Source: Eledone cirrhosa
Taxonomy: Eukaryota
DNA length: 64,000 nt
Reading direction: 5' to 3'
Assembly (NCBI GenBank): GCA_964016885.1
Contig: OZ024742.1
Location: forward strand, 289,540,001-289,604,000
This document shows positions 4,554 through 29,400 of the stretch, one piece after another; the first letter of the stretch is position 1; each line of letters starts with the position of its first letter. The notes beneath the pieces are model-generated. The model ran no database searches and had not been told where the DNA came from. It worked only from the letters and a program-made list of their open reading frames with translations. The translations under genes were made by a program, and so were the position numbers.

Positions 4554-4649
4554 CTTGCCTTCTTGGAGCTCTTGGATAACACGATGTAATTCTACAGATT
4601 CAGACATCTGCCGTTGGTTCCTTGACATTTTCAATTCTGACATTTCTTC
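4554..4649 (-). CDS. Internal exon (96 nt, phase 0) of the same coiled-coil host gene
   Basis: Minus strand: acceptor TTTAATTCTAG|, open frame EEMSELKMSRNQRQMSESVELHRVIQELQEGK (exactly 32 codons), strong donor AAG|GTAAAT. Phase matches the 3313-3531 exon. Too short to appear in the ORF track. Confidence 0.82.
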
Positions 4650-4855: not shown

Positions 4856-4908
4856 TCCCACACATACATAGCCTAGTGAGTAGGGGACTAGGCTATGTAT
4901 GTGTGGGA
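4856..4908. repeat. Perfect 22-bp inverted repeat with 9-nt loop
   Basis: TCCCACACATACATAGCCTAGT (4856-4877) / GAGTAGGGG / ACTAGGCTATGTATGTGTGGGA (4887-4908); the arms are exact reverse complements. Confidence 0.95.
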
Positions 4909-5294
4909 AGGGGTGGGGTGGGGATTTACCGAAAGTAGGACCAGCTTGGTAGGCCTCTTCCTTTTCAGACTGTGGTGTCGGAGGGACATAATTTTCAGTG
5001 TGAGTTCAGATTACATATCAATAGGTTCTGACGAGAGATTAGGCAAGTAAGTCTCTCACGGATATATCCCATCTGGACAAGAACACTGACAGCAGAGGAT
5101 CCGTGAGCTATGCTTTATCCCCTACACCACACAGATACACAAGTATACTCACACATACACACCACATATTGTAAAAAAAAAAAAACATACTCGAAGTTTC
5201 TGATTTTCATCCTTCAAGTGAACAATTTCAGGTGAGATATTTTGATCAGGTAAACTTCCAGACTACAAGTAAAGGAAGAGTTAAAAAAGAATTA

Positions 5295-5452
5295 TTTTCT
5301 CACCAAGTGAAGAATAGACTGTATGATGAATGCATGAGAAGTGTAATGTTGCAGGATTGTAACAGATGGGCAGTGAATGTAGATGTGCGATGTTGCATAG
5401 TAGTGGGACATGAGCAGTGAATGTAGTGAGCCATGGTCAGTAAATGTAGAGG
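5295..5452 (+). pseudogene. Decayed RTE LINE C-terminal fragment merging into the satellite (seed and proto-units)
   Basis: FSHQVKNRLYDECMRSVMLQDCNRWAVNVD aligns without gaps to FSLKMKGRLYDACIRTAMLHGSETWALCAED of the element at 2290-2382; followed by degenerate re-iterations at 5390 and 5433. Confidence 0.82.
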
Positions 5453-8400
5453 ATGTTATGTGGTAGTGAGACAGTGGCAGTGATTGTAGAGGATGTTATG
5501 TGGTAGTGAGACAGTGGCAGTGATTGTAGAGGATGTTATGTGGTAGTGAGACAGTGGCAGTGATTGTAGAGGATGTTATGTGGCAGTGATTGTAGAGGAT
5601 GTTATGTGGCAGTGAGACAGTGGGAGTGATTGTAGAGGATGTTATGTGGTAGTGAGACAGTGGCAGTGATTGTGGAGGATGGTATGTGGCAGTGAGACTG
5701 GCAGTGATTGTAGAGGATGTTATGTGGTAGTGAGACAGTGGCAGTGATTGTAGAGGATGTTATGTGGCAGTGAGACAGTGGCAGTAAATGTAGAGGATGT
5801 TATGTGGCAGTGAGACAGAGGCAGTGATTGTAGAGGATGTTATGTGGCAGTGAGACAGTGGCAGTGATTGTAGAGGATGTTATGTGGTAGTGAGACAGTG
5901 GCAGTGATTGTAGAGGATGTTATGTGGCAGTGAGACTGGCAGTGATTGTAGAGGATGTTATGTGGCAGTGAGACTGGCAGTGATTGTAGAGGATGTTATG
6001 TGGTAGTGAGACAGTGGCAGTGATTGTAGAGGATATTATGTGGTAGTGAAACAGTGGCAGTGATAGTAGAGGATGTTATGTGGCAGTGAGACAGTGGCAG
6101 TGATAGTAGAGGATGTTATGTGGTAGTGAGACAGTGGCAGTGATAGTAGAGGATGTTATGTGGTAGTGAGACAGTGGCAGTGATTGTAGAGGATGTTATG
6201 TGGCAGTGAGACAGTGGCAGTGATTGTAGAGGATGTTATGTGGTAGTGAGACAGTGGCAGTGATTGTAGAGGATGTTATGTGGCAGTGAGACAGTGGCAG
6301 TGATAGTAGAGGATGTTATGTGGTAGTGAGACAGTGGCAGTGATTGTAGAGGATGTTATGTGGCAGTGAGACAGTGGCAGTGATTGTAGAGGATGTTATG
6401 TGGCAGTGAGACAGTGGCAGTGATTGTAGAGGATGTTATGTGGTAGTGAGAAAGTGGCAGTGATTGTAGAGGATGTTATGTGGCAGTAAGACAGTGGCGG
6501 TGATTGTAGAGGATGTTATGTGGCAGTGAGACAGTGGCAGTGATTGTAGAGGATGTTATGTGGTAGTGAGACAGTGGCAGTGATAGTAGAGGATGTTATG
6601 TGGCAGTGAGACAGTGGGAGTGATTGTAGAGGATGTTATGTGGCAGTGAGACAGTGGCAGTGATTGTAGAGGATGTTATGTGGCAGTGAGACAGTGGCAG
6701 TGATTGTAGAGGATGTTATGTGGTAGTGAGACAGTGGCAGTGATTGTAGAGGATGTTATGTGGCAGTGAGACAGTGGCAGTGATTGTAGAGGATGTTATG
6801 TGGTAGTGAGACAGTGGCAGTGATTGTAGAGGATGTTATGTGGCAGTGAGAAAGTGGCAGTGATAGTAGAGGATGTTATGTGGCAGTGAGACAGTGGCAG
6901 TGATTGTAGAGGATGTTATGTGGTAGTAAGACAGTGGCAGTGATTGTAGACGATGTTATGTGGCAGTGAGACTGGCAGTGATTGTAGAGGATGTTATGTG
7001 GTAGTGACACAGTGGCAGTGATTGTAAAGGATGTTATGTGGTAGTGAGACAGTGGCAGTGATTGTAGAGGATGTTATGTGGCAGTGAGACAGTGGCAGTG
7101 ATTGTAGAGGATGTTATGTGGTAGTGAGACAGTGGCAGTGATTGTAGAGGATGTTATGTGGCAGTGAGACAGTGGCAGTGATTGTAGAGGATGTTATGTG
7201 GCAGTGAGACAGTGGAAGTGATTGTAGAGGATGTTATGTGGCAGTGAGACAGTGGCAGTGATTGTAGAGGATGTTATGTGGCAGTGAGACAGTGGCAGTG
7301 ATTGTAGAGGATGTTATGTGGTAGTGAGACAGTGGCAGTGATTGTAGAGGATGTTATGTGGCAGTAAGACAGTGGCGGTGATTGTAGAGGATGTTATGTG
7401 GCAGTGAGACAGTGGCAGTGATTGTAGAGGATGTTATGTGGTAGTGAGACAGTGGCAGTGATAGTAGAGGATGTTATGTGGCAGTGAGACAGTGGGAGTG
7501 ATTGTAGAGGATGTTATGTGGCAGTGAGACAGTGGCAGTGATTGTAGAGGATGTTATGTGGCAGTGAGACAGTGGCAGTGATTGTAGAGGATGTTATGTG
7601 GTAGTGAGACAGTGGCAGTGATTGTAGAGGATGTTATGTGGCAGTGAGACAGTGGCAGTGATTGTAGAGGATGTTATGTGGCAGTGATTGTAGAGGATGT
7701 TATGTGGCAGTGAGACAGTGGGAGTGATTGTAGAGGATGTTATGTGGTAGTGAGACAGTGGCAGTGATTGTAGAGGATGTTATGTGGCAGTGAGACAGTG
7801 GCAGTGATTGTAGAGGATGTTATGTGGCAGTGAGACAGTGGCAGTGATTGTAGAGGATGTTATGTGGTAGTGAGACAGTGGCAGTGATTGTAGAGGATGT
7901 TATGTGGCAGTGAGACAGTGGCAGTGATTGTAGAGGATGTTATGTGGCAGTGAGACAGTGGAAGTGATTGTAGAGGATGTTATGTGGCAGTGAGACAGTG
8001 GCAGTGATTGTAGAGGATGTTATGTGGCAGTGAGACAGTGGCAGTGATTGTAGAGGATGTTATGTGGTAGTGAGACAGTGGCAGTGATTGTAGAGGATGT
8101 TATGTGGCAGTAAGACAGTGGCGGTGATTGTAGAGGATGTTATGTGGCAGTGAGACAGTGGCAGTGATTGTAGAGGATGTTATGTGGTAGTGAGACAGTG
8201 GCAGTGATAGTAGAGGATGTTATGTGGCAGTGAGACAGTGGGAGTGATTGTAGAGGATGTTATGTGGCAGTGAGACAGTGGCAGTGATTGTAGAGGATGT
8301 TATGTGGCAGTGAGACAGTGGCAGTGATTGTAGAGGATGTTATGTGGTAGTGAGACAGTGGCAGTGATTGTAGAGGATGTTATGTGGCAGTGAGACAGTG

Positions 8401-11400
8401 GCAGTGATTGTAGAGGATGTTATGTGGCAGTGATTGTAGAGGATGTTATGTGGCAGTGAGACAGTGGGAGTGATTGTAGAGGATGTTATGTGGTAGTGAG
8501 ACAGTGGCAGTGATTGTAGAGGATGTTATGTGGCAGTGAGACAGTGGCAGTGATTGTAGAGGATGTTATGTGGCAGTGAGACAGTGGCAGTGATTGTAGA
8601 GGATGTTATGTGGCAGTGAGACAGTGGCAGTGATTGTAGAGGATGTTATGTGGCAGTGAGACAGTGGCAGTGATTGTAGAGGATGTTATGTGGTAGTGAG
8701 ACAGTGGCAGTAATTGTAGAGGATGTTATGTGGTAGTGAGACAGTGGCAGTGATTGTAGAGGATGTTATGTGGCAGTGAGACAGTGGCAGTGATTGTAGA
8801 GGATGTTATGTGGTAGTGAGACAGTGGCAGTTATTGTAGAGGATGTTATGTGGCAGTGAGACAGTGGCAGTGATAGTAGAGGATGTTATGTGGCAGTGAG
8901 ACAGTGGGAGTGATTGTAGAGGATGTAATGTGGCAGTGAGACAGTGGCAGTGATTGTAGAGGATGTTATGTGGCAGTGATTGTAGAGAATGTTATGTGGC
9001 AGTGAGACAGTGGCAGTGATTGTAGAGGATGTTATGTGGTAGTGAGACAGTGGCAGTGATTGTAGAGGATGTTATGTGGCAGTGATTGTAGAGAATGTTA
9101 TGTGGCAGTGAGACAGTGGCAGTGATTGTAGAGGATGTTATGTGGTAGTGAGACAGTGGCATTGAATGTAGAGGATGTTATGTGGCAGTGAGACAGTGGC
9201 AGTGATTGTAGAGGATGTTATGTGGTAGTGAGACAGTGGCAGTGATTGTAGAGGATGGTATGTGGCAGCGAGACAGGGGCAGTGATTGTAGAGGATGTTA
9301 TGTGGTAGTGAGACAGTGGCAGTGATTGTAGAGGATGTTATGTGGTAGTGAGACAGTGGCAGTGATTGTAGAGCATGTTATGTGGCAGTGAGACAGTGGC
9401 AGTGATTGTAGAGGATGTTATGTGGCAGTGAGACAGTGGGAGTGATTGTAGAGGATGTTACGTGGCAGTGAGACAGTGGCAGTGATTGTAGAGGATGTTA
9501 TGTGGTAGTGAGACAGGGGCAGTGATTGTAGAGGATGTTATGTGGTAGTGAGACAGTGGCAGTGATTGTAGAGGATGTTATGTGGTAGTGAGACAGTGGT
9601 AGTGATTGTAGAGGATGTTATGTGGTAGTGAGACAGTGGCAGTGATTGTAGAGCATGTTATGTGGCAGTGAGACAGTGGCAGTGATTGTAGAGGATGTTA
9701 TGTGGTAGTGAGACAGTGGAAGTGATTGTAGAGGATGTTATGTGGTAGTGAGACAGTGGCAGTGATTGTAGAGGATGTTATGTGGCAGTGAGATAGTGGC
9801 AGTGATTGTAGAGGATGTTATGTGGTAGTGAGACAGTGGCAGTGATTGTAGAGGATGTTATGTGGCAGTGAGACAGTGGCAGTGATTGTAGAGGATGTTA
9901 TGTGGTAGTGAGACAGTGGCAGTGATAGTAGAGGATGTTATGTGGCAGTGAGACAGTGGTAGTGATTGTAGAGGATGTTATGTGGTAGTGAGACAGTGGC
10001 AGTGATTGTAGAGCATGTTATGTGGCAGTGAGACAGTGGCAGTGATTGTAGAGGATGTTATGTGGTAGTGAGACAGTGGCAGTGATTGTAGAGGATGTTA
10101 TGTGGCAGTGAGACAGTGGCAGTGATTGTAGAGGATGTTATGTGGCAGTGAGACAGTGGCAGTGATTGTAGAGGATGTTATGTGGTAGTGAGACAGTGGC
10201 AGTGATTGTAGAGGATGTTATGTGGCAGTAAGACAGTGGCAGTGATTGTAGAGGATGTTACGTGGCAGTGAGACAGTGGCAGTGATTGTAGAGGATGTTA
10301 TGTGGTAGTGAGACAGTGGCAGTGATAGTAGAGGATGTTATGTGGCAGTGAGACAGTGGGAGTGATTGTAGAGGATGTTATGTGGCAGTGAGACAGTGGC
10401 AGTGATTGTAGAGGATGTTATGTGGTAGTGAGACAGTGGCAGTAATTGTAGAGGGTGTGATGTGGTAGTGAGACAGTGGCAGTGATTGTAGAGGATGTTA
10501 TGTGGCAGTGAGACAGTGGCAGTGATTGTAGAGGATGTTATGTGGTAGTGAGACAGTGGCAGTGATTGTAGAGGATGTTATGTGGCAGTGAGACAGTGGC
10601 AGTGATAGTAGAGGATGTTATGTGGCAGTGAGACAGTGGGAGTGATTGTAGAGGATGTTATGTGGCAGTGAGACAGTGGCAGTGATTGTAGAGGATGTTA
10701 TGTGGCAGTGATTGTAGAGAATGTTATGTGGCAGTGAGACAGTGGCAGTGATTGTAGAGGATGTTATGTGGCAGTGATTGTAGAGAATGTTATGTGGCAG
10801 TGAGACAGTGGCAGTGATTGTAGAGGATGTTATGTGGTAGTGAGACAGTGGCAGTGATTGTAGAGGATGGTATGTGGCAGCGAGACAGGGGCAGTGATTG
10901 TAGAGGATGTTATGTGGTAGTGAGACAGTGGCAGTGATTGTAGAGGATGTTATGTGGTAGTGAGACAGTGGCAGTGATTGTAGAGCATGTTATGTGGCAG
11001 TGAGACAGTGGCAGTGATTGTAGAGGATGTTATGTGGCAGTGAGACAGTGGGAGTGATTGTAGAGGATGTTACGTGGCAGTGAGACAGTGGCAGTGATTG
11101 TAGAGGATGTTATGTGGTAGTGAGACAGGGGCAGTGATTGTAGAGGATGTTATGTGGTAGTGAGACAGTGGCAGTGATTGTAGAGGATGTTATGTGGTAG
11201 TGAGACAGTGGTAGTGATTGTAGAGGATGTTATGTGGTAGTGAGACAGTGGCAGTGATTGTAGAGCATGTTATGTGGCAGTGAGACAGTGGCAGTGATTG
11301 TAGAGGATGTTATGTGGTAGTGAGACAGTGGAAGTGATTGTAGAGGATGTTATGTGGTAGTGAGACAGTGGCAGTGATTGTAGAGGATGTTATGTGGCAG

Positions 11401-14400
11401 TGAGACAATGGCAGTGATTGTAGAGGATATTATGTGGTAGTGAGACAGTGGCAGTGATTGTAGAGGATGTTATGTGGCAGTGAGACAGTGGCAGTGATTG
11501 TAGAGGATGTTATGTGGTAGTGAGACAGTGGCAGTGATAGTAGAGGATGTTATGTGGCAGTGAGACAGTGGTAGTGATTGTAGAGGATGTTATGTGGTAG
11601 TGAGACAGTGGCAGTGATTGTAGAGCATGTTATGTGGCAGTGAGACAGTGGCAGTGATTGTAGAGGATGTTATGTGGCAGTGAGACAGTGGCAGTGATTG
11701 TAGAGGATGTTATGTGACAGTGAGACAGTGGCAGTGATTGTAGAGGATGTTATGTGGCAGTGAGACAGTGGCAGTGATTGTAGAGGATGTTATGTGGTAG
11801 TGAGACAGTGGCAGTGATTGTAGAGGATGTTATGTGGCAGTGAGACAGTGGCAGTGATTGTAGAGGATGTTATGTGGCAGTGATTGTAGAGGATGTTATG
11901 TGGCAGTGAGACAGTGGGAGTGATTGTAGAGGATGTTATGTGGTAGTGAGACAGTGGCAGTGATTGTAGAGGATGTTATGTGGCAGTGAGACAGTGGCAG
12001 TGATTGTAGAGGATGTTATGTGGCAGTGAGACAGTGGCAGTGATTGTAGAGGATGTTATGTGGCAGTGAGACAGTGGCAGTGATTGTAGAGGATGTTATG
12101 TGGCAGTGAGACAGTGGCAGTGATTGTAGAGGATGTTATGTGGTAGTGAGACAGTGGCAGTAATTGTAGAGGATGTTATGTGGTAGTGAGACAGTGGCAG
12201 TGATTGTAGAGGATGTTATGTGGCAGTGAGACAGTGGCAGTGATTGTAGAGGATGTTATGTGGTAGTGAGACAGTGGCAGTGATTGTAGAGGATGTTATG
12301 TGGCAGTGAGACAGTGGCAGTGATAGTAGAGGATGTTATGTGGCAGTGAGACAGTGGGAGTGATTGTAGAGGATGTAATGTGGCAGTGAGACAGTGGCAG
12401 TGATTGTAGAGGATGTTATGTGGCAGTGATTGTAGAGAATGTTATGTGGCAGTGAGACAGTGGCAGTGATTGTAGAGGATGTTATGTGGTAGTGAGACAG
12501 TGGCAGTGATTGTAGAGGATGTTATGTGGCAGTGATTGTAGAGAATGTTATGTGGCAGTGAGACAGTGGCAGTGATTGTAGAGGATGTTATGTGGTAGTG
12601 AGACAGTGGCATTGAATATAGAGGATGTTATGTGGCAGTGAGACAGTGGCAGTGATTGTAGAGGATGTTATGTGGTAGTGAGACAGTGGCAGTGATTGTA
12701 GAGGATGGTATGTGGCAGCGAGACAGGGGCAGTGATTGTAGAGGATGTTATGTGGTAGTGAGACAGTGGCAGTGATTGTAGAGGATGTTATGTGGTAGTG
12801 AGACAGTGGCAGTGATTGTAGAGCATGTTATGTGGCAGTGAGACAGTGGCAGTGATTGTAGAGGATGTTATGTGGCAGTGAGACAGTGGGAGTGATTGTA
12901 GAGGATGTTACGTGGCAGTGAGACAGTGGCAGTGATTGTAGAGGATGTTATGTGGTAGTGAGACAGGGGCAGTGATTGTAGAGGATGTTATGTGGTAGTG
13001 AGACAGTGGCAGTGATTGTAGAGGATGTTATGTGGTAGTGAGACAGTGGTAGTGATTGTAGAGGATGTTATGTGGTAGTGAGACAGTGGCAGTGATTGTA
13101 GAGCATGTTATGTGGCAGTGAGACAGTGGCAGTGATTGTAGAGGATGTTATGTGGTAGTGAGACAGTGGAAGTGATTGTAGAGGATGTTATGTGGTAGTG
13201 AGACAGTGGCAGTGATTGTAGAGGATGTTATGTGGCAGTGAGATAGTGGCAGTGATTGTAGAGGATGTTATGTGGTAGTGAGACAGTGGCAGTGATTGTA
13301 GAGGATGTTATGTGGCAGTGAGACAGTGGCAGTGATTGTAGAGGATGTTATGTGGTAGTGAGACAGTGGCAGTGATAGTAGAGGATGTTATGTGGCAGTG
13401 AGACAGTGGTAGTGATTGTAGAGGATGTTATGTGGTAGTGAGACAGTGGCAGTGATTGTAGAGCATGTTATGTGGCAGTGAGACAGTGGCAGTGATTGTA
13501 GAGGATGTTATGTGGTAGTGAGACAGTGGCAGTGATTGTAGAGGATGTTATGTGGCAGTGAGACAGTGGCAGTGATTGTAGAGGATGTTATGTGGCAGTG
13601 AGACAGTGGCAGTGATTGTAGAGGATGTTATGTGGTAGTGAGACAGTGGCAGTGATTGTAGAGGATGTTATGTGGCAGTAAGACAGTGGCAGTGATTGTA
13701 GAGGATGTTACGTGGCAGTGAGACAGTGGCAGTGATTGTAGAGGATGTTATGTGGTAGTGAGACAGTGGCAGTGATAGTAGAGGATGTTATGTGGCAGTG
13801 AGACAGTGGGAGTGATTGTAGAGGATGTTATGTGGCAGTGAGACAGTGGCAGTGATTGTAGAGGATGTTATGTGGTAGTGAGACAGTGGCAGTAATTGTA
13901 GAGGGTGTGATGTGGTAGTGAGACAGTGGCAGTGATTGTAGAGGATGTTATGTGGCAGTGAGACAGTGGCAGTGATTGTAGAGGATGTTATGTGGTAGTG
14001 AGACAGTGGCAGTGATTGTAGAGGATGTTATGTGGCAGTGAGACAGTGGCAGTGATAGTAGAGGATGTTATGTGGCAGTGAGACAGTGGGAGTGATTGTA
14101 GAGGATGTTATGTGGCAGTGAGACAGTGGCAGTGATTGTAGAGGATGTTATGTGGCAGTGATTGTAGAGAATGTTATGTGGCAGTGAGACAGTGGCAGTG
14201 ATTGTAGAGGATGTTATGTGGCAGTGATTGTAGAGAATGTTATGTGGCAGTGAGACAGTGGCAGTGATTGTAGAGGATGTTATGTGGTAGTGAGACAGTG
14301 GCATTGAATGTAGAGGATGTTATGTGGCAGTGAGACAGTGGCAGTGATTGTAGAGGATGTTATGTGGTAGTGAGACAGTGGCAGTGATTGTAGAGGATGG

Positions 14401-17400
14401 TATGTGGCAGCGAGACAGGGGCAGTGATTGTAGAGGATGTTATGTGGTAGTGAGACAGTGGCAGTGATTGTAGAGGATGTTATGTGGTAGTGAGACAGTG
14501 GCAGTGATTGTAGAGCATGTTATGTGGCAGTGAGACAGTGGCAGTGATTGTAGAGGATGTTATGTGGCAGTGAGACAGTGGGAGTGATTGTAGAGGATGT
14601 TACGTGGCAGTGAGACAGTGGCAGTGATTGTAGAGGATGTTATGTGGTAGTGAGACAGGGGCAGTGATTGTAGAGGATGTTATGTGGTAGTGAGACAGTG
14701 GCAGTGATTGTAGAGGATGTTATGTGGTAGTGAGACAGTGGTAGTGATTGTAGAGGATGTTATGTGGTAGTGAGACAGTGGCAGTGATTGTAGAGCATGT
14801 TATGTGGCAGTGAGACAGTGGCAGTGATTGTAGAGGATGTTATGTGGTAGTGAGACAGTGGAAGTGATTGTAGAGGATGTTATGTGGTAGTGAGACAGTG
14901 GCAGTGATTGTAGAGGATGTTATGTGGCAGTGAGACAATGGCAGTGATTGTAGAGGATATTATGTGGTAGTGAGACAGTGGCAGTGATTGTAGAGGATGT
15001 TATGTGGCAGTGAGACAGTGGCAGTGATTGTAGAGGATGTTATGTGGTAGTGAGACAGTGGCAGTGATAGTAGAGGATGTTATGTGGCAGTGAGACAGTG
15101 GTAGTGATTGTAGAGGATGTTATGTGGTAGTGAGACAGTGGCAGTGATTGTAGAGCATGTTATGTGGCAGTGAGACAGTGGCAGTGATTGTAGAGGATGT
15201 TATGTGGCAGTGAGACAGTGGCAGTGATTGTAGAGGATGTTATGTGACAGTGAGACAGTGGCAGTGATTGTAGAGGATGTTATGTGGCAGTGAGACAGTG
15301 GCAGTGATTGTAGAGGATGTTATGTGGTAGTGAGACAGTGGCAGTGATTGTAGAGGATGTTATGTGGCAGTAAGACAGTGGCAGTGATTGTAGAGGATGT
15401 TATGTGGCAGTGAGACAGTGGCAGTGATTGTAGAGGATGTTATGTGGTAGTGAGACAGTGGCAGTGATAGTAGAGGATGTTATGTGGCAGTGAGACAGTG
15501 GGAGTGATTGTAGAGGATGTTATGTGGCAGTGAGACAGTGGCAGTGATTGTAGAGGATGTTATGTGGTAGTGAGACAGTGGCAGTAATTGTAGAGGGTGT
15601 GATGTGGTAGTGAGACAGTGGCAGTGATTGTAGAGGATGTTATGTGGCAGTGAGACAGTGACAGTGATTGTAGAGGATGTTATGTGGTAGTGAGACAGTG
15701 GCAGTGATTGTAGAGGATGTTATGTGGTAGTGAGACAGTGGCAGTGATTGTAGAGGATGTTATGTGGCAGTGAGACAGTGGCAGTGATAGTAGAGGATGT
15801 TATGTGGCAGTGAGACAGTGGGAGTGATTGTAGAGGATGTTATGTGGCAGTGAGACAGTGGCAGTGATTGTAGAGGATGTTATGTGGCAGTGATTGTAGA
15901 GAATGTTATGTGGCAGTGAGACAGTGGCAGTGATTGTAGAGGATGTTATGTGGTAGTGAGACAGTGGCAGTGATTGTAGAGGATGTTATGTGGCAGTGAT
16001 TGTAGAGAATGTTATGTGGCAGTGAGACAGTGGCAGTGATTGTAGAGGATGTTATGTGGTAGTGAGACAGTGGCATTGAATGTAGAGGATGTTATGTGGC
16101 AGTGAGACAGTGGCAGTGATTGTAGAGGATGTTATGTGGTAGTGAGACAGTGGCAGTGATTGTAGAGGATGGTATGTGGCAGCGAGACAGGGGCAGTGAT
16201 TGTAGAGGATGTTATGTGGTAGTGAGACAGTGGCAGTGATTGTAGAGGATGTTATGTGGTAGTGAGACAGTGGCAGTGATTGTAGAGCATGTTATGTGGC
16301 AGTGAGACAGTGGCAGTGATTGTAGAGGATGTTATGTGGCAGTGAGACAGTGGGAGTGATTGTAGAGGATGTTACGTGGCAGTGAGACAGTGGCAGTGAT
16401 TGTAGAGGATGTTATGTGGTAGTGAGACAGGGGCAGTGATTGTAGAGGATGTGATGTGGTAGTGAGACAGTGGCAGTGATTGTAGAGGATGTTATGTGGT
16501 AGTGAGACAGTGGCAGTGATTGTAGAGGATGTTATGTGGCAGTAAGACAGTGGCAGTGATTGTAGAGGATGTTATGTGGCAGTGAGACAGTGGCAGTGAT
16601 TGTAGAGGATGTTATGTGGTAGTGAGACAGTGGCAGTGATAGTAGAGGATGTTATGTGGCAGTGAGACAGTGGGAGTGATTGTAGAGGATGTTATGTGGC
16701 AGTGAGACAGTGGCAGTGATTGTAGAGGATGTTATGTGGCAGTGAGACAGTGGCAGTGATTGTAGAGGATGTTATGTGGTAGTGAGACAGTGGCAGTGAT
16801 TGTAGAGGTTGTTATGTGGCAGTGAGACAGTGGCAGTGATTGTAGAGGATGTTATGTGGTAGTGAGACAGTGGCAGTGATTGTAGAGGATGTTATGTGGC
16901 AGTGAGACAGTGGCAGTGATAGTAGAGGATGTTATGTGGCAGTGAGACAGTGGCAGTGATTGTAGAGGATGTTATGTGGTAGTAAGACAGTGGCAGTGAT
17001 TGTAGAGGATGTTATGTGGCAGTGAGACTGGCAGTGATTGTAGAGGATGTTATGTGGTAGTGAGACAGTGGCAGTGATTGTAAAGGATGTTATGTGGTAG
17101 TGAGACAGTGGCAGTGATTGTAGAGGATGTTATCTGGCAGTGAGACAATGGCAGTGATTGTAGAGGATGTTATGTGGTAGTGAGACAGTGGCAGTGATTG
17201 TAGAGGATGTTATGTGGCAGTGAGACAGTGGCAGTGATTGTAGAGGATGTTATGTGGCAGTGAGAGAGTGGCAGTGATTGTAGAGGATGTTATGTGGTAG
17301 TGAGACAGTGGCAGTGATAGTAGAGGATGTTATGTGGCAGTGATTGTAGAGGATGTTATGTGGCAGTGAGACAGTGGCAGTTATTGTAGAGGATGTTATG

Positions 17401-20400
17401 TGGTAGTGAGACAGTGGCAGTGATTGTAGAGGATGTTATGTGATAGTGAGACAGTGGCAGTGATTGTAGAGGATGTTATGTGGTAGTGAGACAGTGGCAG
17501 TGATTGTAGAGGATGTTATGTGGCAGTGATTGTAGAGGATGTTATGTGGCAGTGAGACAGTGGGAGTGATTGTAGAGGATGTTATGTGGTAGTGAGACAG
17601 TGGCAGTGATTGTAGAGGATGTTATGTGGCAGTGAGACAGTGGCAGTAATTGTAGAGGATGTTATGTAGCAGTGAGACAGTGGCAGTGATTGGAGAGGAT
17701 GTTATGTGGCAGTGAGACAGTGGCAGTGATTGTAGAGGATGTTATGTGGCAGTGAGACAGTGGCACTGATTGTAGAGGATGTTATGTGGTAGTGAGACAG
17801 TGGCAGTAATTGTAGAGGATGTTATGTGGTAGTGAGACAGTGGCAGTGATTGTAGAGGATGTTATGTGGCAGTGAGACAGTGGCAGTGATTGTAGAGGAT
17901 GTTATGTGGTAGTGAGACAGTGGCAGTGATTGTAGAGGATGTTATGTGGTAGTGAGACAGTGGCAGTGATTGTAGAGCATGTTATGTGGCAGTGAGACAG
18001 TGGCAGTGATTGTAGAGGATGTTATGTGGCAGTGAGACAGTGGGAGTGATTGTAGAGGATGTTACGTGGCAGTGAGACAGTGGCAGTGATTGTAGAGGAT
18101 GTTATGTGGCAGTGAGACAGTGGGAGTGATTGTAGAGGATGTTACGTGGCAGTGAGACAGTGGCAGTGATTGTAGAGGATGTTATGTGGTAGTGAGACAG
18201 GGGCAGTGATTGTAGAGGATGTTATGTGGTAGTGAGACAGTGGCAGTGATTGTAGAGGATGTTATGTGGTAGTGAGACAGTGGTAGTGATTGTAGAGGAT
18301 GTTATGTGGTAGTGAGACAGTGGCAGTGATTGTAGAGCATGTTATGTGGCAGTGAGACAGTGGCAGTGATTGTAGAGGATGTTATGTGGTAGTGAGACAG
18401 TGGAAGTGATTGTAGAGGATGTTATGTGGTAGTGAGACAGTGGCAGTTATTGTAGAGGATGTTATGTGGCAGTGAGACAGTGGCAGTGATTGTAGAGGAT
18501 GTTATGTGGTAGTGAGACAGTGGCAGTGATTGTAGAGGATGTTATGTGGCAGTGAGACAGTGGCAGTGATTGTAGAGGATGTTATGTGGTAGTGAGACAG
18601 TGGCAGTGATAGTAGAGGATGTTATGTGGCAGTGAGACAGTGGTAGTGATTGTAGAGGATGTTATGTGGTAGTGAGACAGTGGCAGTGATTGTAGAGCAT
18701 GTTATGTGGCAGTGAGACAGTGGCAGTGATTGTAGAGGATGTTATGTGGCAGTGAGACAGTGGCAGTGATTGTAGAGGATGTTATGTGGCAGTGAGACAG
18801 TGGCAGTGATTGTAGAGGATGTTATGTGGCAGTGAGACAGTGGCAGTGATTGTAGAGGATGTTATGTGGTAGTGAGACAGTGGCAGTGATTGTAGAGGAT
18901 GTTATGTGGCAGTAAGACAGTGGCAGTGATTGTAGAGGATGTTATGTGGCAGTGAGACAGTGGCAGTGATTGTAGAGGATGTTATGTGGTAGTGAGACAG
19001 TGGCAGTGATAGTAGAGGATGTTATGTGGCAGTGAGACAGTGGGAGTGATTGTAGAGGATGTTATGTGGCAGTGAGACAGTGGCAGTGATTGTAGAGGAT
19101 GTTATGTGGTAGTGAGACAGTGGCAGTAATTGTAGAGGGTGTGATGTGGTAGTGAGACAGTGGCAGTGATTGTAGAGGATGTTATGTGGCAGTGAGACAG
19201 TGACAGTGATTGTAGAGGATGTTATGTGGTAGTGAGACAGTGGCAGTGATTGTAGAGGATGTTATGTGGTAGTAAGACAGTGGCAGTGATTGTAGAGGAT
19301 GTTATGTGGTAGTGAGACAGTGGCAGTGATTGTAGAGGATGTTATGTGGCAGTGAGACAGTGGCAGTGATAGTAGAGGATGTTATGTGGCAGTGAGACAG
19401 TGGGAGTGATTGTAGAGGATGTTATGTGGCAGTGAGACAGTGGCAGTGATTGTAGAGGATGTTATGTGGCAGTGATTGTAGAGAATGTTATGTGGCAGTG
19501 AGACAGTGGCAGTGATTGTAGAGGATGTTATGTGGTAGTGAGACAGTGGCAGTGATTGTAGAGGATGTTATGTGGTAGTGAGACAGTGGCATTGAATGTA
19601 GAGGATGTTATGTGGCAGTGAGACAGTGGCAGTGATTGTAGAGGATGTTATGTGGTAGTGAGACAGTGGCAGTGATTGTAGAGGATGGTATGTGGCAGCG
19701 AGACAGGGGCAGTGATTGTAGAGGATGTTATGTGGTAGTGAGACAGTGGCAGTGATTGTAGAGGATGTTATGTGGTAGTGAGACAGTGGCAGTGATTGTA
19801 GAGCATGTTATGTGGCAGTGAGACAGTGGCAGTGATTGTAGAGGATGTTATGTGGCAGTGAGACAGTGGGAGTGATTGTAGAGGATGTTACGTGGCAGTG
19901 AGACAGTGGCAGTGATTGTAGAGGATGTTATGTGGTAGTGAGACAGGGGCAGTGATTGTAGAGGATGTGATGTGGTAGTGAGACAGTGGCAGTGATTGTA
20001 GAGGATGTTATGTGGTAGTGAGACAGTGGTAGTGATTGTAGAGGATGTTATGTGGTAGTGAGACAGTGGCAGTGATTGTAGAGCATGTTATGTGGCAGTG
20101 AGACAGTGGCAGTGATTGTAGAGGATGTTATGTGGTAGTGAGACAGTGGAAGTGATTGTAGAGGATGTTATGTGGCAGTGAGACAGTGGCAGTGATTGTA
20201 GAGGATGTTATGTGGCAGTGAGACAGTGGAAGTGATTGTAGAGGATGTTATGTGGTAGTGAGACAGTGGCAGTGATTGTAGAGGATGTTATGTGGCAGTA
20301 AGACAGTGGCAGTGATTGTAGAGGATGTTATGTGGCAGTGAGACAGTGGCAGTGATTGTAGAGGATGTTATGTGGTAGTGAGACAGTGGCAGTGATAGTA

Positions 20401-23400
20401 GAGGATGTTATGTGGCAGTGAGACAGTGGTAGTGATTGTAGAGGATGTTATGTGGTAGTGAGACAGTGGCAGTGATTGTAGAGCATGTTATGTGGCAGTG
20501 AGACAGTGGCAGTGATTGTAGAGGATGTTATGTGGTAGTGAGACAGTGGCAGTGATTATAGAGGATGTTATGTGGCAGTGAGACAGTGGCAGTGATTGTA
20601 GAGGATGTTATGTGGCAGTGAGACAGTGGCAGTGATTGTAGAGGATGTTATGTGGTAGTGAGACAGTGGCAGTGATTGTAGAGGATGTTATGTGGCAGTA
20701 AGACAGTGGCAGTGATTGTAGAGGATGTTATGTGGCAGTGAGACAGTGGCAGTGATTGTAGAGGATGTTATGTGGTAGTGAGACAGTGGCAGTGATAGTA
20801 GAGGATGTTATGTGGCAGTGAGACAGTGGGAGTGATTGTAGAGGATGTTATGTGGCAGTGAGACAGTGGCAGTGATTGTAGAGGATGTTATGTGGCAGTG
20901 AGACAGTGGCAGTGATTGTAGAGGATGTTATGTGGTAGTGAGACAGTGGCAGTGATTGTAGAGGTTGTTATGTGGCAGTGAGACAGTGGCAGTGATTGTA
21001 GAGGATGTTATGTGGTAGTGAGACAGTGGCAGTGATTGTAGAGGATGTTATGTGGTAGTAAGACAGTGGCAGTGATTGTAGAGGATGTTATGTGGCAGTG
21101 AGACTGGCAGTGATTGTAGAGGATGTTATGTGGTAGTGAGACAGTGGCAGTGATTGTAAAGGATGTTATGTGGTAGTGAGACAGTGGCAGTGATTGTAGA
21201 GGATGTTATGTGGCAGTGAGACAATGGCAGTGATTGTAGAGGATGTTATGTGGTAGTGAGACAGTGGCAGTGATTGTAGAGGATGTTATGTGGCAGTGAG
21301 ACAGTGGCAGTGATTGTAGAGGATGTTATGTGGCAGTGAGAGAGTGGCAGTGATTGTAGAGGATGTTATGTGGTAGTGAGACAGTGGCAGTGATAGTAGA
21401 GGATGTTATGTGGCAGTGATTGTAGAGGATGTTATGTGGCAGTGAGACAGTGGCAGTTATTGTAGAGGATGTTATGTGGTAGTGAGACAGTGGCAGTGAT
21501 TGTAGAGGATGTTATGTGATAGTGAGACAGTGGCAGTGATTGTAGAGGATGTTATGTGGTAGTGAGACAGTGGCAGTGATTGTAGAGGATGTTATGTGGC
21601 AGTGATTGTAGAGGATGTTATGTGGCAGTGAGACAGTGGGAGTGATTGTAGAGGATGTTATGTGGTAGTGAGACAGTGGCAGTGATTGTAGAGGATGTTA
21701 TGTGGCAGTGAGACAGTGGCAGTGATTGTAGAGGATGTTATGTGGCAGTGAGACAGTGGCAGTGATTGTAGAGGATGTTATGTGGCAGTGAGACAGTGGC
21801 AGTGATTGTAGAGGATGTTATGTAGCAGTGAGACAGTGGCAGTGATTGGAGAGGATGTTATGTGGCAGTGAGACAGTGGCAGTGATTGTAGAGGATGTTA
21901 TGTGGCAGTGAGACAGTGGCACTGATTGTAGAGGATGTTATGTGGTAGTGAGACAGTGGCAGTAATTGTAGAGGATGTTATGTGGTAGTGAGACAGTGGC
22001 AGTGATTGTAGAGGATGTTATGTAGCAGTGAGACAGTGGCAGTGATTGTAGAGGATGTTATGTGGTAGTGAGACAGTGGCAGTGATTGTAGAGGATGTTA
22101 TGTGGTAGTGAGACAGTGGCAGTGATTGTAGAGCATGTTATGTGGCAGTGAGACAGTGGCAGTGATTGTAGAGGATGTTATGTGGCAGTGAGACAGTGGG
22201 AGTGATTGTAGAGGATGTTACGTGGCAGTGAGACAGTGGCAGTGATTGTAGAGGATGTTATGTGGTAGTGAGACAGGGGCAGTGATTGTAGAGGATGTTA
22301 TGTGGTAGTGAGACAGTGGCAGTGATTGTAGAGGATGTTATGTGGTAGTGAGACAGTGGTAGTGATTGTAGAGGATGTTATGTGGTAGTGATTGTAGAGG
22401 ATGTTATGTGGTAGTGAGACAGTGGCAGTGATTGTAGAGCATGTTATGTGGCAGTGAGACAGTGGCAGTGATTGTAGAGGATGTTATGTGGCAGTGAGAC
22501 AGTGGCAGTGATTGTAGAGGATGTTATGTGGCAGTGAGACAGTGGCAGTGATTGTAGAGGATGTTATGTGGCAGTGAGACAGTGGCAGTGATTGTAGAGG
22601 ATGTTATGTGGTAGTGAGACAGTGGCAGTGATTGTAGAGGATGTTATGTGGCAGTAAGACAGTGGCAGTGATTGTAGAGGATGTTATGTGGCAGTGAGAC
22701 AGTGGCAGTGATTGTAGAGGATGTTATGTGGTAGTGAGACAGTGGCAGTGATAGTAGAGGATGTTATGTGGCAGTGAGACAGTGGGAGTGATTGTAGAGG
22801 ATGTTATGTGGCAGTGAGACAGTGGCAGTGATTGTAGAGGATGTTATGTGGTAGTGAGACAGTGGCAGTAATTGTAGAGGGTGTGATGTGGTAGTGAGAC
22901 AGTGGCAGTGATTGTAGAGGATGTTATGTGGCAGTGAGACAGTGACAGTGATTGTAGAGGATGTTATGTGGTAGTGAGACAGTGGCAGTGATTGTAGAGG
23001 ATGTTATGTGGTAGTAAGGCAGTGGCAGTGATTGTAGAGGATATTATGTGGTAGTGAGACAGTGGCAGTGATTGTAGAGGATGTTATGTGGCAGTGAGAC
23101 AGTGGCAGTGATAGTAGAGGATGTTATGTGGCAGTGAGACAGTGGGAGTGATTGTAGAGGATGTTATGTGGCAGTGAGACAGTGGCAGTGATTGTAGAGG
23201 ATGTTATGTGGCAGTGATTGTAGAGAATGTTATGTGGCAGTGAGACAGTGGCAGTGATTGTAGAGGATGTTATGTGGTAGTGAGACAGTGGCAGTGATTG
23301 TAGAGGATGTTATGTGGCAGTGATTGTAGAGAATGTTATGTGGCAGTGAGACAGTGGCAGTGATTGTAGAGGATGTTATGTGGTAGTGAGACAGTGGCAT

Positions 23401-26400
23401 TGAATGTAGAGGATGTTATGTGGCAGTGAGACAGTGGCAGTGATTGTAGAGGATGTTATGTGGTAGTGAGACAGTGGCAGTGATTGTAGAGGATGGTATG
23501 TGGCAGCGAGACAGGGGCAGTGATTGTAGAGGATGTTATGTGGTAGTGAGACAGTGGCAGTGATTGTAGAGGATGTTATGTGGTAGTGAGACAGTGGCAG
23601 TGATAGTAGAGGATGTTATGTGACAGTGAGACAGTGGTAGTGATTGTAGAGGATGTTATGTGGTAGTGAGACAGTGGCAGTGATTGTAGAGCATGTTATG
23701 TGGCAGTGAGACAGTGGCAGTGATTGTAGAGGATGTTATGTGGTAGTGAGACAGTGGCAGTGATTATAGAGGATGTTATGTGGCAGTGAGACAGTGGCAG
23801 TGATTGTAGAGGATGTTATGTGGCAGTGAGACAGTGGCAGTGATTGTAGAGGATGTTATGTGGTAGTGAGACAGTGGCAGTGATTGTAGAGGATGTTATG
23901 TGGCAGTAAGACAGTGGCAGTGATTGTAGAGGATGGTATGTGGCAGTGAGACAGTGGCAGTGATTGTAGAGGATGTTATGTGGTAGTGAGACAGTGGCAG
24001 TGATAGTAGAGGATGTTATGTGGCAGTGAGACAGTGGGAGTGATTGTAGAGGATGTTATGTGGCAGTGAGACAGTGGCAGTGATTGTAGAGGATGTTATG
24101 TGGCAGTGAGACAGTGGCAGTGATTGTAGAGGATGTTATGTGGTAGTGAGACAGTGGCAGTGATTGTAGAGGTTGTTATGTGGCAGTGAGACAGTGGCAG
24201 TGATTGTAGAGGATGTTATGTGGTAGTGAGACAGTGGCAGTGATTGTAGAGGATGTTATGTGGCAGTGAGACAGTGGCAGTGATAGTAGAGGATGTTATG
24301 TGGCAGTGAGACAGTGGCAGTGATTGTAGAGGATGTTATGTGGTAGTAAGACAGTGGCAGTGATTGTAGAGGATGTTATGTGGCAGTGAGACTGGCAGTG
24401 ATTGTAGAGGATGTTATGTGGTAGTGAGACAGTGGCAGTGATTGTAAAGGATGTTATGTGGTAGTGAGACAGTGGCAGTGATTGTAGAGGATGTTATGTG
24501 GCAGTGAGACAGTGGCAGTGATTGTAGAGGATGTTATGTGGTAGTGAGACAGTGGCAGTGATTGTAGAGGATGTTATGTGGCAGTGAGACAGTGGCAGTG
24601 ATTGTAGAGGATGTTATGTGGCAGTGAGAGAGTGGCAGTGATTGTAGAGGATGTTATGTGGTAGTGAGACAGTGGCAGTGATAGTAGAGGATGTTATGTG
24701 GCAGTGATTGTAGAGGATGTTATGTGGCAGTGAGACAGTGGCAGTTATTGTAGAGGATGTTATGTGGTAGTGAGACAGTGGCAGTGATTGTAGAGGATGT
24801 TATGTGATAGTGAGACAGTGGCAGTGATTGTAGAGGATGTTATGTGGTAGTGAGACAGTGGCAGTGATTGTAGAGGATGTTATGTGGTAGTGAGACAGTG
24901 GCAGTGATTGTAGAGGATGTTATGTGGTAGTGAGACAGTGGCAGTGATTGTAGAGGATGTTATGTGGTAGTGAGACAGTGGCAGTGATTGTAGAGGATGT
25001 TATGTGGTAGTGAGACAGTGGCAGTGATTGTAGAGGATGTTATGTGGCAGTGATTGTAGAGGATGTTATGTGGCAGTGAGACAGTGGGAGTGATTGTAGA
25101 GGATGTTATGTGGTAGTGAGACAGTGGCAGTGATTGTAGAGGATGTTATGTGGCAGTGAGACAGTGGAAGTGATTGTAGAGGATGTTATGTGGTAGTGAG
25201 ACAGTGGCAGTGATTGTAGAGGATGTTATGTGGCAGTAAGACAGTGGCAGTGATTGTAGAGGATGTTATGTGGCAGTGAGACAGTGGCAGTGATTGTAGA
25301 GGATGTTATGTGGTAGTGAGACAGTGGCAGTGATAGTAGAGGATGTTATGTGGCAGTGAGACAGTGGCAGTGATTGTAGAGGATGTTATGTGGTAGTGAG
25401 ACAGTGGCAGTGATTGTAGAGCATGTTATGTGGCAGTGAGACAGTGGCAGTGATTGTAGAGGATGTTATGTGGTAGTGAGACAGTGGCAGTGATTATAGA
25501 GGATGTTATGTGGCAGTGAGACAGTGGCAGTGATTGTAGAGGATGTTATGTGGCAGTGAGACAGTGGCAGTGATTGTAGAGGATGTTATGTGGTAGTGAG
25601 ACAGTGGCAGTGATTGTAGAGGATGTTATGTGGCAGTAAGACAGTGGCAGTGATTGTAGAGGATGTTATGTGGCAGTGAGACAGTGGCAGTGATTGTAGA
25701 GGATGTTATGTGGTAGTGAGACAGTGGCAGTGATAGTAGAGGATGTTATGTGGCAGTGAGACAGTGGGAGTGATTGTAGAGGATGTTATGTGGCAGTGAG
25801 ACAGTGGCAGTGATTGTAGAGGATGTTATGTGGCAGTGAGACAGTGGCAGTGATTGTAGAGGATGTTATGTGGTAGTGAGACAGTGGCAGTGATTGTAGA
25901 GGTTGTTATGTGGCAGTGAGACAGTGGCAGTGATTGTAGAGGATGTTATGTGGTAGTGAGACAGTGGCAGTGATTGTAGAGGATGTTATGTGGTAGTAAG
26001 ACAGTGGCAGTGATTGTAGAGGATGTTATGTGGCAGTGAGACTGGCAGTGATTGTAGAGGATGTTATGTGGTAGTGAGACAGTGGCAGTGATTGTAAAGG
26101 ATGTTATGTGGTAGTGAGACAGTGGCAGTGATTGTAGAGGATGTTATGTGGCAGTGAGACAATGGCAGTGATTGTAGAGGATGTTATGTGGTAGTGAGAC
26201 AGTGGCAGTGATTGTAGAGGATGTTATGTGGCAGTGAGACAGTGGCAGTGATTGTAGAGGATGTTATGTGGCAGTGAGAGAGTGGCAGTGATTGTAGAGG
26301 ATGTTATGTGGTAGTGAGACAGTGGCAGTGATAGTAGAGGATGTTATGTGGCAGTGATTGTAGAGGATGTTATGTGGCAGTGAGACAGTGGCAGTTATTG

Positions 26401-29400
26401 TAGAGGATGTTATGTGGTAGTGAGACAGTGGCAGTGATTGTAGAGGATGTTATGTGATAGTGAGACAGTGGCAGTGATTGTAGAGGATGTTATGTGGTAG
26501 TGAGACAGTGGCAGTGATTGTAGAGGATGTTATGTGGCAGTGATTGTAGAGGATGTTATGTGGCAGTGAGACAGTGGGAGTGATTGTAGAGGATGTTATG
26601 TGGTAGTGAGACAGTGGCAGTGATTGTAGAGGATGTTATGTGGCAGTGAGACAGTGGCAGTGATTGTAGAGGATGTTATGTGGCAGTGAGACAGTGGCAG
26701 TGATTGTAGAGGATGTTATGTGGCAGTGAGACAGTGGCAGTGATTGTAGAGGATGTTATGTAGCAGTGAGACAGTGGCAGTGATTGGAGAGGATGTTATG
26801 TGGCAGTGAGACAGTGGCAGTGATTGTAGAGGATGTTATGTGGCAGTGAGACAGTGGCACTGATTGTAGAGGATGTTATGTGGTAGTGAGACAGTGGCAG
26901 TAATTGTAGAGGATGTTATGTGGTAGTGAGACAGTGGCAGTGATTGTAGAGGATGTTATGTGGCAGTGAGACAGTGGCAGTGATTGTAGAGGATGTTATG
27001 TGGTAGTGAGACAGTGGCAGTGATTGTAGAGGATGTTATGTGGTAGTGAGACAGTGGCAGTGATTGTAGAGCATGTTATGTGGCAGTGAGACAGTGGCAG
27101 TGATTGTAGAGGATGTTATGTGGCAGTGAGACAGTGGGAGTGATTGTAGAGGATGTTACGTGGCAGTGAGACAGTGGCAGTGATTGTAGAGGATGTTATG
27201 TGGTAGTGAGACAGGGGCAGTGATTGTAGAGGATGTTATGTGGTAGTGAGACAGTGGCAGTGATTGTAGAGGATGTTATGTGGTAGTGAGACAGTGGTAG
27301 TGATTGTAGAGGATGTTATGTGGTAGTGAGACAGTGGCAGTAATTGTAGAGCATGTTATGTGGCAGTGAGACAGTGGCAGTGATTGTAGAGGATGTTATG
27401 TGGTAGTGAGACAGTGGAAGTGATTGTAGAGGATGTTATGTGGTAGTGAGACAGTGGCAGTTATTGTAGAGGATGTTATGTGGCAGTGAGACAGTGGCAG
27501 TGATTGTAGAGGATGTTATGTGGTAGTGAGACAGTGGCAGTGATTGTAGAGGATGTTATGTGGCAGTGAGACAGTGGCAGTGATTGTAGAGGATGTTATG
27601 TGGTAGTGAGACAGTGGCAGTGATAGTAGAGGATGTTATGTGGCAGTGAGACAGTGGTAGTGATTGTAGAGGATGTTATGTGGTAGTGAGACAGTGGCAG
27701 TGATTGTAGAGCATGTTATGTGGCAGTGAGACAGTGGCAGTGATTGTAGAGGATGTTATGTGGCAGTGAGACAGTGGCAGTGATTGTAGAGGATGTTATG
27801 TGGCAGTGAGACAGTGGCAGTGATTGTAGAGGATGTTATGTGGCAGTGAGACAGTGGCAGTGATTGTAGAGGATGTTATGTGGTAGTGAGACAGTGGCAG
27901 TGATTGTAGAGGATGTTATGTGGCAGTAAGACAGTGGCAGTGATTGTAGAGGATGTTATGTGGCAGTGAGACAGTGGCAGTGATTGTAGAGGATGTTATG
28001 TGGTAGTGAGACAGTGGCAGTGATAGTAGAGGATGTTATGTGGCAGTGAGACAGTGGGAGTGATTGTAGAGGATGTTATGTGGCAGTGAGACAGTGGCAG
28101 TGATTGTAGAGGATGTTATGTGGTAGTGAGACAGTGGCAGTAATTGTAGAGGGTGTGATGTGGTAGTGAGACAGTGGCAGTGATTGTAGAGGATGTTATG
28201 TGGCAGTGAGACAGTGACAGTGATTGTAGAGGATGTTATGTGGTAGTGAGACAGTGGCAGTGATTGTAGAGGATGTTATGTGGTAGTAAGACAGTGGCAG
28301 TGATTGTAGAGGATGTTATGTGGTAGTGAGACAGTGGCAGTGATTGTAGAGGATGTTATGTGGCAGTGAGACAGTGGCAGTGATAGTAGAGGATGTTATG
28401 TGGCAGTGAGACAGTGGGAGTGATTGTAGAGGATGTTATGTGGCAGTGAGACAGTGGCAGTGATTGTAGAGGATGTTATGTGGCAGTGATTGTAGAGAAT
28501 GTTATGTGGCAGTGAGACAGTGGCAGTGATTGTAGAGGATGTTATGTGGTAGTGAGACAGTGGCAGTGATTGTAGAGGATGTTATGTGGCAGTGATTGTA
28601 GAGAATGTTATGTGGCAGTGAGACAGTGGCAGTGATTGTAGAGGATGTTATGTGGTAGTGAGACAGTGGCATTGAATGTAGAGGATGTTATGTGGCAGTG
28701 AGACAGTGGCAGTGATTGTAGAGGATGTTATGTGGTAGTGAGACAGTGGCAGTGATTGTAGAGGATGGTATGTGGCAGCGAGACAGGGGCAGTGATTGTA
28801 GAGGATGTTATGTGGTAGTGAGACAGTGGCAGTGATTGTAGAGGATGTTATGTGGTAGTGAGACAGTGGCAGTGATAGTAGAGGATGTTATGTGGCAGTG
28901 AGACAGTGGTAGTGATTGTAGAGGATGTTATGTGGTAGTGAGACAGTGGCAGTGATTGTAGAGCATGTTATGTGGCAGTGAGACAGTGGCAGTGATTGTA
29001 GAGGATGTTATGTGGTAGTGAGACAGTGGCAGTGATTATAGAGGATGTTATGTGGCAGTGAGACAGTGGCAGTGATTGTAGAGGATGTTATGTGGCAGTG
29101 AGACAGTGGCAGTGATTGTAGAGGATGTTATGTGGTAGTGAGACAGTGGCAGTGATTGTAGAGGATGTTATGTGGCAGTAAGACAGTGGCAGTGATTGTA
29201 GAGGATGGTATGTGGCAGTGAGACAGTGGCAGTGATTGTAGAGGATGTTATGTGGTAGTGAGACAGTGGCAGTGATAGTAGAGGATGTTATGTGGCAGTG
29301 AGACAGTGGGAGTGATTGTAGAGGATGTTATGTGGCAGTGAGACAGTGGCAGTGATTGTAGAGGATGTTATGTGGCAGTGAGACAGTGGCAGTGATTGTA

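What the first reader, a model, noticed from the sequence alone, without database searches (positions are those of the whole stretch)
5295..5500. Birth site preserved: graded series from LINE fragment to proto-units to homogenised monomer
Seen, in order: LINE frame ...AGTGTA|ATGTTGCAGGATTGTAACAGATGGGCAGTGAATGTAGATGTGCG (5346); ATGTTGCATAGTAGTGGGACATGAGCAGTGAATGTAG (5390, which retains the ancestral ATGTTGCAT and ACATG); a partial ..TGAGCCATGGTCAGTAAATGTAGAGG (~5427-5452); then canonical units from 5453. Inference: the first duplication joined the GAT(G) of the E-D codons to the ATG of M-L-H by microhomology, fixing a 40-bp period. Edge copies escaped homogenisation, which suggests the array originated at this locus rather than being transposed here.
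Basis: partly seen in the sequence, partly recalled or inferred. Interest (0 to 1): 0.75.

Follow-up and report, generated by a model that had tools for sequence, protein, structure and literature searches.

The report
Intron satellite grown from LINE seed
A 149,000-base run of a 40-base repeat fills one intron of a spliced gene, and a related species appears to hold only a few copies at the same spot, so it likely grew in place from one of about a dozen equally old, decayed repeats of a jumping-gene fragment rather than through the graded series first proposed.

Summary
The sequences are there as described and the junction is real: a single-copy contig spans 4800-5474. The array is 149 kb (3,668 units), its exact monomer occurs only here (2118 of 2118 genome-wide hits), and about eight more decayed LINE-like units close its far end. 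A related species holds the same flank, the same edge units and about 2-4 monomers, so amplification in place is well supported. The edge units carry none of the monomer's five derived bases and are 24% apart, like independent LINE copies: siblings, not a gradient. The first junction is in a 47-bp register; the 40-bp period is likely a later 7-bp deletion. The same LINE segment is tandem at 64 other loci fetched, in at least two subfamilies (one clade rejected). On the three largest contigs, 23 of 25 junction loci lie near ends, and many junctions carry bases absent from their own flank. So the first duplication may have been imported. The array lies in a 150.7-kb spliced intron. This is a known process, unusually well caught; the scan found like cases from other LINE segments in this genome.

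The parts
4554..4649 (-). exon of the host gene (coiled-coil-like, unidentified)
   Evidence: open 32-codon frame; loose end of the X5 contig matches it by eye with one 3-base difference
5191..5262 (-). exon of the host gene just downstream of the satellite intron
   Evidence: X5 633-bp contig lies on 5190-5262 with 0 differences and continues on the exon at L040:1993-2103
5263..5292 (-). 3' splice site and pyrimidine tract of the 150,730-bp intron
   Evidence: sequence and the spliced contig
5265..5345 (+). old LINE fragment, C-terminal part of the ORF, upstream of the repeated segment
   Evidence: frame from 5295; hits to LINE copies from about 5285; weak alignment score; orthologue in organism B, 17 differences in 180 bases over 5172-5351
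5346..5389 (+). edge unit 1, 44 bp: 47-bp register, 3 bases short (likely a deletion in this lineage), CpG at the junction intact
   Evidence: the organism B contig over 5322-5452 is 134 bases against 131
5390..5426 (+). edge unit 2, 37 bp, LINE-state bases
   Evidence: present in organism B
5427..5451 (+). edge unit 3, 25 bp, entered through a short GTAG repeat
   Evidence: present in organism B
5452..64000 (+). 40-bp satellite, first 58.5 kb of a 149-kb array that ends about 90 kb beyond the window (G000:C3:289694495), followed by about eight decayed LINE-like units

Best explanation
The 149-kb array likely grew in place, likely after this species split from a relative, from one 40-bp member of an old cluster of about a dozen decayed tandem copies of a 47-bp piece of a LINE coding region, and the other copies lie unamplified on both sides. 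Steps: (1) shown: the units derive from the LINE segment that encodes M-L-H-G-S-E-T-W-A-V-N-V-E-D, which is bounded by a short natural direct repeat (TGCGA or TGTGA) 47 bp apart. (2) inferred: a 47-bp duplication at that repeat, about as old as the LINE insertion, gave a small cluster; misalignment at shorter repeats gave 40-, 37- and 25-bp members; all then decayed independently. (3) shown as far as one run of contigs allows: the relative keeps this cluster with about 2-4 monomers. (4) inferred: here one member was multiplied about 1000-fold by unequal exchange or break repair that copies blocks of 1.7-14 kb, perhaps helped by a 10-bp internal repeat at 14-bp spacing. (5) open: the first 47-bp junction was either made here (about 45%), copied in from another locus by recombination (about 40%), or carried by a retrotransposed master copy (about 15%). 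No function is implied; the host gene is spliced across the array.
For: Exact 39-mer: 2118 hits genome-wide, 0 on the reverse strand, and 2118 in this locus (reverse hits do occur with other patterns). Single-copy X1 contig over 4800-5474 with 1 difference. Organism B (run X4): contigs on 5172-5351, 5322-5452, 5426-5493 and 5441-5495, the last with 0 differences and running straight into the far-end letters; monomer-bin depth 105 against 23-31 single-copy, and 58 against 20 at the far end; in X1, 32,184 against 6.15. Edge units 24.4% apart (45 pairs), plain copies 24.3% (300 pairs); array units 3.7% apart and 2.4% from their consensus, below the 7-9% between the species' flanks. Identical runs of 119, 93 and 72 units at lags of 105, 136 and 176 units. 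48 units of 26 bp and 3 of 54 bp use the 14-bp register. 47-bp units at the edges with 40- or 42-bp units inside at C3:371.3, C9:35.5, C17:20.5 and C24:11.8 Mb.
Against: Organism B rests on one run of short contigs; summed contig depth is not a copy number, and no single piece spans its whole cluster. No outgroup, so loss in B is not excluded, and concerted evolution resets the array's clock. X1 may be the sample that was assembled, and its contig reaches only 23 bases past 5452 (under the tool's 31-base bar), though it bridges 5346, 5390 and 5427. No LINE frame continues after the far end, so the array is not enclosed by two halves of one copy. The T-form monomer has no long perfect internal repeat (5 bp), so the self-similarity argument holds only for the C-form.
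Confidence: 0.8

Rival explanations
1. One reading: one LINE fragment duplicated here at a 40-bp period, and the edge units are successive intermediates towards the monomer.
For: Order of parts is as described; distance to the monomer falls along units 1-3; units 1 and 2 match the host's own upstream bases at the junction (TTGCA), as local birth predicts.
Against: No derived monomer base in any of the three units; the monomer is no further from the LINE than its neighbours; first junction in the 47-bp register; the finished monomer already sits in the relative's small cluster.
Confidence: 0.07
2. The array was already large in the common ancestor and collapsed in organism B.
For: One B contig matches the array's commonest sequence with 0 differences over 55 bases although the flanks differ by 7-9%. 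Tandem arrays contract readily (general knowledge).
Against: Two other B monomer contigs differ at 4 sites each. Array diversity (2.4% from consensus) is below half the flank divergence (about 3.5-4.7%). A collapse would have to remove over 99.9% of units and spare both decayed edges.
Confidence: 0.08
3. On the first duplication only (compatible with growth in place): the 47-bp junction spreads between dead LINE copies by ectopic recombination, so the seed here was imported.
For: Two-unit loci L336 and L092 carry junction bases (GTG-CTA) that their own upstream flank lacks; the pair of states is in 0 of 63 plain copies. Host-state junctions sit next to the flank and foreign ones inside at L342, L343, L346. 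Array-bearing copies are not one clade (34 against 70 rows, AU p = 1.2e-5). 23 of 25 junction loci on C1-C3 lie within 10% of an end, against 4 of 55 places found by flank (Fisher p = 7e-14). Among A-type cores, T at +24 goes with arrays (7 of 10 loci, against 2 of 13 for C; p = 0.013), and about 10 of the 11 units here have that T.
Against: The foreign bases are also the ones that copying from the neighbouring 13-bp sub-repeat would give (seen by eye), so they may arise convergently. This locus is interstitial (23.5% from an end), lacks the GTG junction, and its first junction matches its own flank. The search patterns were built from array units. Subfamily B is a star tree, so a master with a duplication is not excluded within it.
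Confidence: 0.4
4. Misassembly joined an unrelated satellite to this flank.
For: No long reads were seen; block duplications inside the array could be partly assembly artefacts.
Against: Contigs of two species give the same join; both ends fit one small ancestral cluster; a spliced contig links the exons on either side.
Confidence: 0.02

Closest known systems
SINE-derived satellites (sSats) of squamates, PMC10702118 (abstract and sections 17 and 19 read)
   Same: Tandem repeats of part of a retroposon at many loci, a longer terminal unit matching the element, more uniform units in longer arrays, subtelomeric preference, orthologues that differ in unit number.
   Different: Source here is a LINE coding region; one locus reaches 3,668 units (up to about 1000 there) with a private monomer; the orthologue differs about 1000-fold (there mostly 0-1 units, some 10 or more); junction bases foreign to the host flank are not discussed in the sections read.
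Alu-derived minisatellites and the Haber-Louis short-direct-repeat model (Jurka and Gentles 2006 not held; seen only as cited in passages of PMC3389668 and PMC6947457)
   Same: A 40-50-bp segment bounded by short direct repeats in a dispersed element is duplicated at many copies, then amplified by slippage, conversion or unequal exchange.
   Different: Those stay minisatellites as described in the passages seen; here one reached satellite size, with a secondary change of period (47 to 40).
Satellites related to LINE ORF2: chicken HinfI (CR1), PROsat, Pvc20 (passages and table of PMC9659126)
   Same: Monomer related to a LINE coding region.
   Different: Described there by similarity only; that review finds no conclusive evidence of preferred portions, whereas one breakpoint recurs here at dozens of loci.

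Membership tests
TE-derived tandem repeat (minisatellite to satellite) | Unit homologous to part of a dispersed element | tested here: met
   monomer and edge units score above all 200 shuffles against plain LINE copies
TE-derived tandem repeat (minisatellite to satellite) | Element sequence continues at a terminal unit | tested here: met
   upstream frame at 5295-5345 (weak score); none downstream here; both flanks at many sister loci
Haber-Louis minisatellite birth | Short direct repeat bounding the unit in the unduplicated element | tested here: met
   plain copies show TGCGA/TGTGA upstream and TGCGA/TGCG 47 bp downstream; 4-5 bp, at the short end of the 5-10 bp quoted in PMC6947457
Haber-Louis minisatellite birth | Junction copies the host's own flank (local birth) | tested here: inconclusive
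   met for the first junction here; not met at many subfamily B loci
Satellite DNA under concerted evolution | Long homogeneous array, units closer to each other than to their source | tested here: met
   3,668 units 3.7% apart; 17% from the LINE majority
Satellite DNA under concerted evolution | Multi-locus family, heterochromatic or centromeric | tested here: not met
   exact monomer at one intronic locus; chromatin not testable
RTE-clade LINE (source element) | One ORF with AP endonuclease and RT, short tandem-repeat 3' tail (definition recalled) | tested here: met
   related copies: Exo_endo_phos, RVT_1 and PHD, homologues of about 1050 aa with both domains, (ATG)n tail
RTE-clade LINE (source element) | RT groups with named RTE elements in a tree | not tested

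The most novel reading that the evidence does not exclude
A duplication junction behaves as an infectious allele: it passes by ectopic recombination between dead copies of a LINE, mostly near chromosome ends, turning each into a satellite seed; this locus is an old recipient caught both before (organism B, 2-4 units) and after (3,668 units) a 1000-fold burst inside a working intron.
Probability: 0.3. Interest if true: 0.75.

Novelty: new member of a known kind. Interest (0 to 1): 0.5.

Why it matters
Satellite birth is usually inferred from similarity alone. Here the source element, the seed cluster, the unamplified orthologue and 64 sister arrays from 2 units to about 22 kb are all in hand. 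That makes two old questions testable: which unit of a 'library' gets amplified, and whether seeds arise anew or spread between loci. It also shows an intron of about 1.8 kb growing to 150.7 kb while the gene is still spliced. The process itself is known, and nothing here shows a function.

Tried and rejected
Graded edge: no shared derived bases, no divergence gradient. Shared order of unit lengths among old clusters, as one master array would give: none seen by eye in 17 loci plus this one; that parse was noisy; best colinear hits to the far-end cluster were 73-75% over its length. Master carrying the repeat as the norm of a subfamily: 0 of 60 distinct non-query copies with a recognisable segment were tandem (87 non-query loci read; 26 had no recognisable segment, 1 duplicate). 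Hairpin as driver for this array: the monomer dimer folds weakly (-4.4 kcal/mol, other strand 0; no shuffle control). Host gene identity: no Pfam hit for three exons, no solved-structure hit for one, Atlas not available. No RNA holder was listed; X5 is judged to be cDNA only from its spliced contig. RAD-seq run X6 did not cover the unique flank. Literature searches for this family in print: 2 listings; 0; 2; 2; 114 papers, 15 listed, none on cephalopod satellites by title; 2; 0. No supplements were read; those of PMC10702118 may bear on junction states.

Full report
Setting. The window is G000:C3:289540001-289604000 of a 3.0-Gb genome; an octopus by my recollection of its repeats, not shown by any search. 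Bases 5452-64000 are a 40-bp tandem array. I fetched 110 kb downstream and 20 kb upstream. The array runs to extended position 154,495, that is 149,044 bp and 3,668 units, broken once by a 2,779-bp antisense LINE copy.

Observation. The three edge units are at the stated places: 44, 37 and 25 bp. They and the monomer match plain LINE copies above all 200 shuffles; the upstream fragment passes narrowly. They are not graded. None has any of the five bases that mark the monomer. They differ from the majority of 25 plain copies at 7/37, 4/37 and 4/28 sites, the monomer at 7/42. The far end has about eight further decayed units, one of which restarts 39 bases upstream in the LINE, and no downstream LINE frame. 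The ten edge units compared are 24.4% apart, plain copies 24.3%, so the cluster is about as old as the insertions themselves.

The junction is real and the monomer is private. An exact 39-mer occurs 2118 times in the genome and 2118 times in this locus. The 5180-5460 query found no other copy above 80% over more than 100 bases among 40 of 114 candidates scored. A contig of run X1 at single-copy depth spans 4800-5474 with one difference. X1 may be the assembled sample, and it extends only 23 bases into the first monomer.

The orthologue. Run X4 (organism B, one run, another study) has contigs on 5172-5351 (17 differences), 5322-5452 (9 differences, 3 gaps), 5426-5493 (4) and 5441-5495 (0 in one contig, 4 in another). 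The 0-difference contig goes from edge unit 3 through one monomer straight into the letters of the far end. The far-end units are present too (L040:518-618). Depth on the monomer is 105 against 23-31 for single-copy pieces, and 58 against 20 at the far end; in X1 it is 32,184 against 6.15. The tool warns that such depth is no copy number; in X1 it gives about 5,200 against 3,668 assembled, so I use it only for order of magnitude. B thus appears to hold about 2-4 monomers inside the same cluster. The B contig over 5322-5452 is three bases longer, which fits a full 47-bp first unit (inference). Array units are 2.4% from their consensus, less than half the 7-9% between the species' flanks, which fits growth after the split; collapse in B is not excluded without an outgroup.

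The period. Plain copies carry a 4-5-bp direct repeat 47 bp apart. A strict 47-bp junction pattern has 95 hits at about 30 loci, a looser one 827 hits; the 40-bp junction pattern has 43 hits at 7 loci. At four loci 47-bp units lie at the edges and 40- or 42-bp units inside. The 47-bp junction itself creates GAT(GT) twice, 7 bp apart, so I infer that 40 is a deletion product of 47.

Growth. Identical runs of 119, 93 and 72 units recur at lags of 4.2, 5.4 and 7.0 kb, and the favoured lags differ along the array: local block duplication, as unequal exchange or break repair would give (inference; some blocks could be assembly artefacts). About half the units have a C at position 13 that makes a perfect 10-bp repeat at 14-bp spacing, and 51 units have lost or gained 14 bp.

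The family. Of loci fetched because they matched array queries or junction patterns, 64 have two or more units (47 of 48, one, 16; a few are near-copies of each other). Among copies picked by downstream flank alone, 0 of 60 with a recognisable segment are tandem, so the state is rare. In a tree of downstream flanks (104 rows with at least 130 aligned bases; shorter flanks and this locus dropped) 25 array copies mix with 21 plain copies in subfamily B (100/98) and 9 lie outside it; one clade is rejected (AU p = 1.2e-5). The label is still clustered (18 changes against 29 shuffled) and B is unresolved. On C1-C3, 23 of 25 junction loci lie within 10% of a contig end, against 4 of 55 flank-picked places (not all checked as plain) and 2 of 20 for subfamily B alone. 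Many junctions read GTG-CTA where the locus's own flank reads ATG-CTG, even in two-unit loci. That fits import by ectopic recombination, but the same two bases would result from copying the neighbouring 13-bp sub-repeat, so convergence stands as a rival. This locus is of the older type, interstitial, with a first junction that matches its own flank but a T at +24 shared with other old arrays. Where its first duplication arose is open.

Host gene. A 633-bp contig of run X5 lies on 5190-5262 (record 113-185) and on L040:1993-2103 (record 186-296, same length and depth), with canonical splice sites: a minus-strand intron of 150,730 bp, about 1.8 kb before growth. The gene is unidentified.

Comparison. 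The closest cases are squamate SINE-derived satellites (PMC10702118, abstract and sections 17 and 19) and Alu-derived minisatellites born at short direct repeats (passages of PMC3389668 and PMC6947457). LINE-ORF-related satellites are listed in PMC9659126 (passages). Seven searches found no description of this family. Earlier unreviewed notes of this scan describe the same behaviour for a 99-bp ORF piece and a 48-bp tail piece in this genome; they are leads, not support.

Verdict. Real, grown in place, not graded, seeded in a 47-bp register whose origin is open. A new member of a known kind with an unusually complete record; interest 0.5.

Noticed in passing
G000:C3:289608441-289611219 (L031:4441-7219): 5'-truncated antisense LINE copy inside the array with an unbroken 824-codon frame (RVT_1, PHD) and an (ATG)n tail; only about 4 bases repeated at its ends.
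   Followed up: partly
window 603-3213: Older LINE copy of a related family, 74-76% like the insert, lacking about 920 bases that hold the RT core; a 112-bp duplication in its 3' tail at 2875-3106.
   Followed up: partly
C26:20.988 Mb, C14:41.064 Mb, C28:98.459 Mb (L295-L297); L046 upstream flank: Other segments of the same LINE also appear tandem (periods of about 222, 133 and 49 bp, judged from hit spacing and sequence), so the 47-bp site is not the only source. L295-L298 were fetched but not analysed.
   Followed up: no
L291 (C25:1.82 Mb) and the far end of this array: Both use a longer register that restarts 39 bases upstream in the LINE.
   Followed up: partly
L337, L339, L155 (C1:5.14 Mb, C1:6.43 Mb, C1432), probably L081; C3:252.63 and 253.01 Mb: Array loci that are near-copies of each other, likely segmental duplicates or alternate haplotypes.
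   Followed up: partly
L040:6004-6174, L042:8230-8400, L300:6849-7019: The same 57-residue RT stretch three times near this gene: likely three further very young LINE insertions.
   Followed up: no
L040:2110-2400: A degenerate tandem stretch of another kind in the next intron (seen by eye).
   Followed up: no
L334 (C7:27.36 Mb), L287 (C16), L289 (C28:100.81 Mb): Sister arrays with periods 47, 40/42 and 43 and at least 63, 115 and 84 units in the stretches fetched; L334 and L287 run off the stretch, so they may be large.
   Followed up: no
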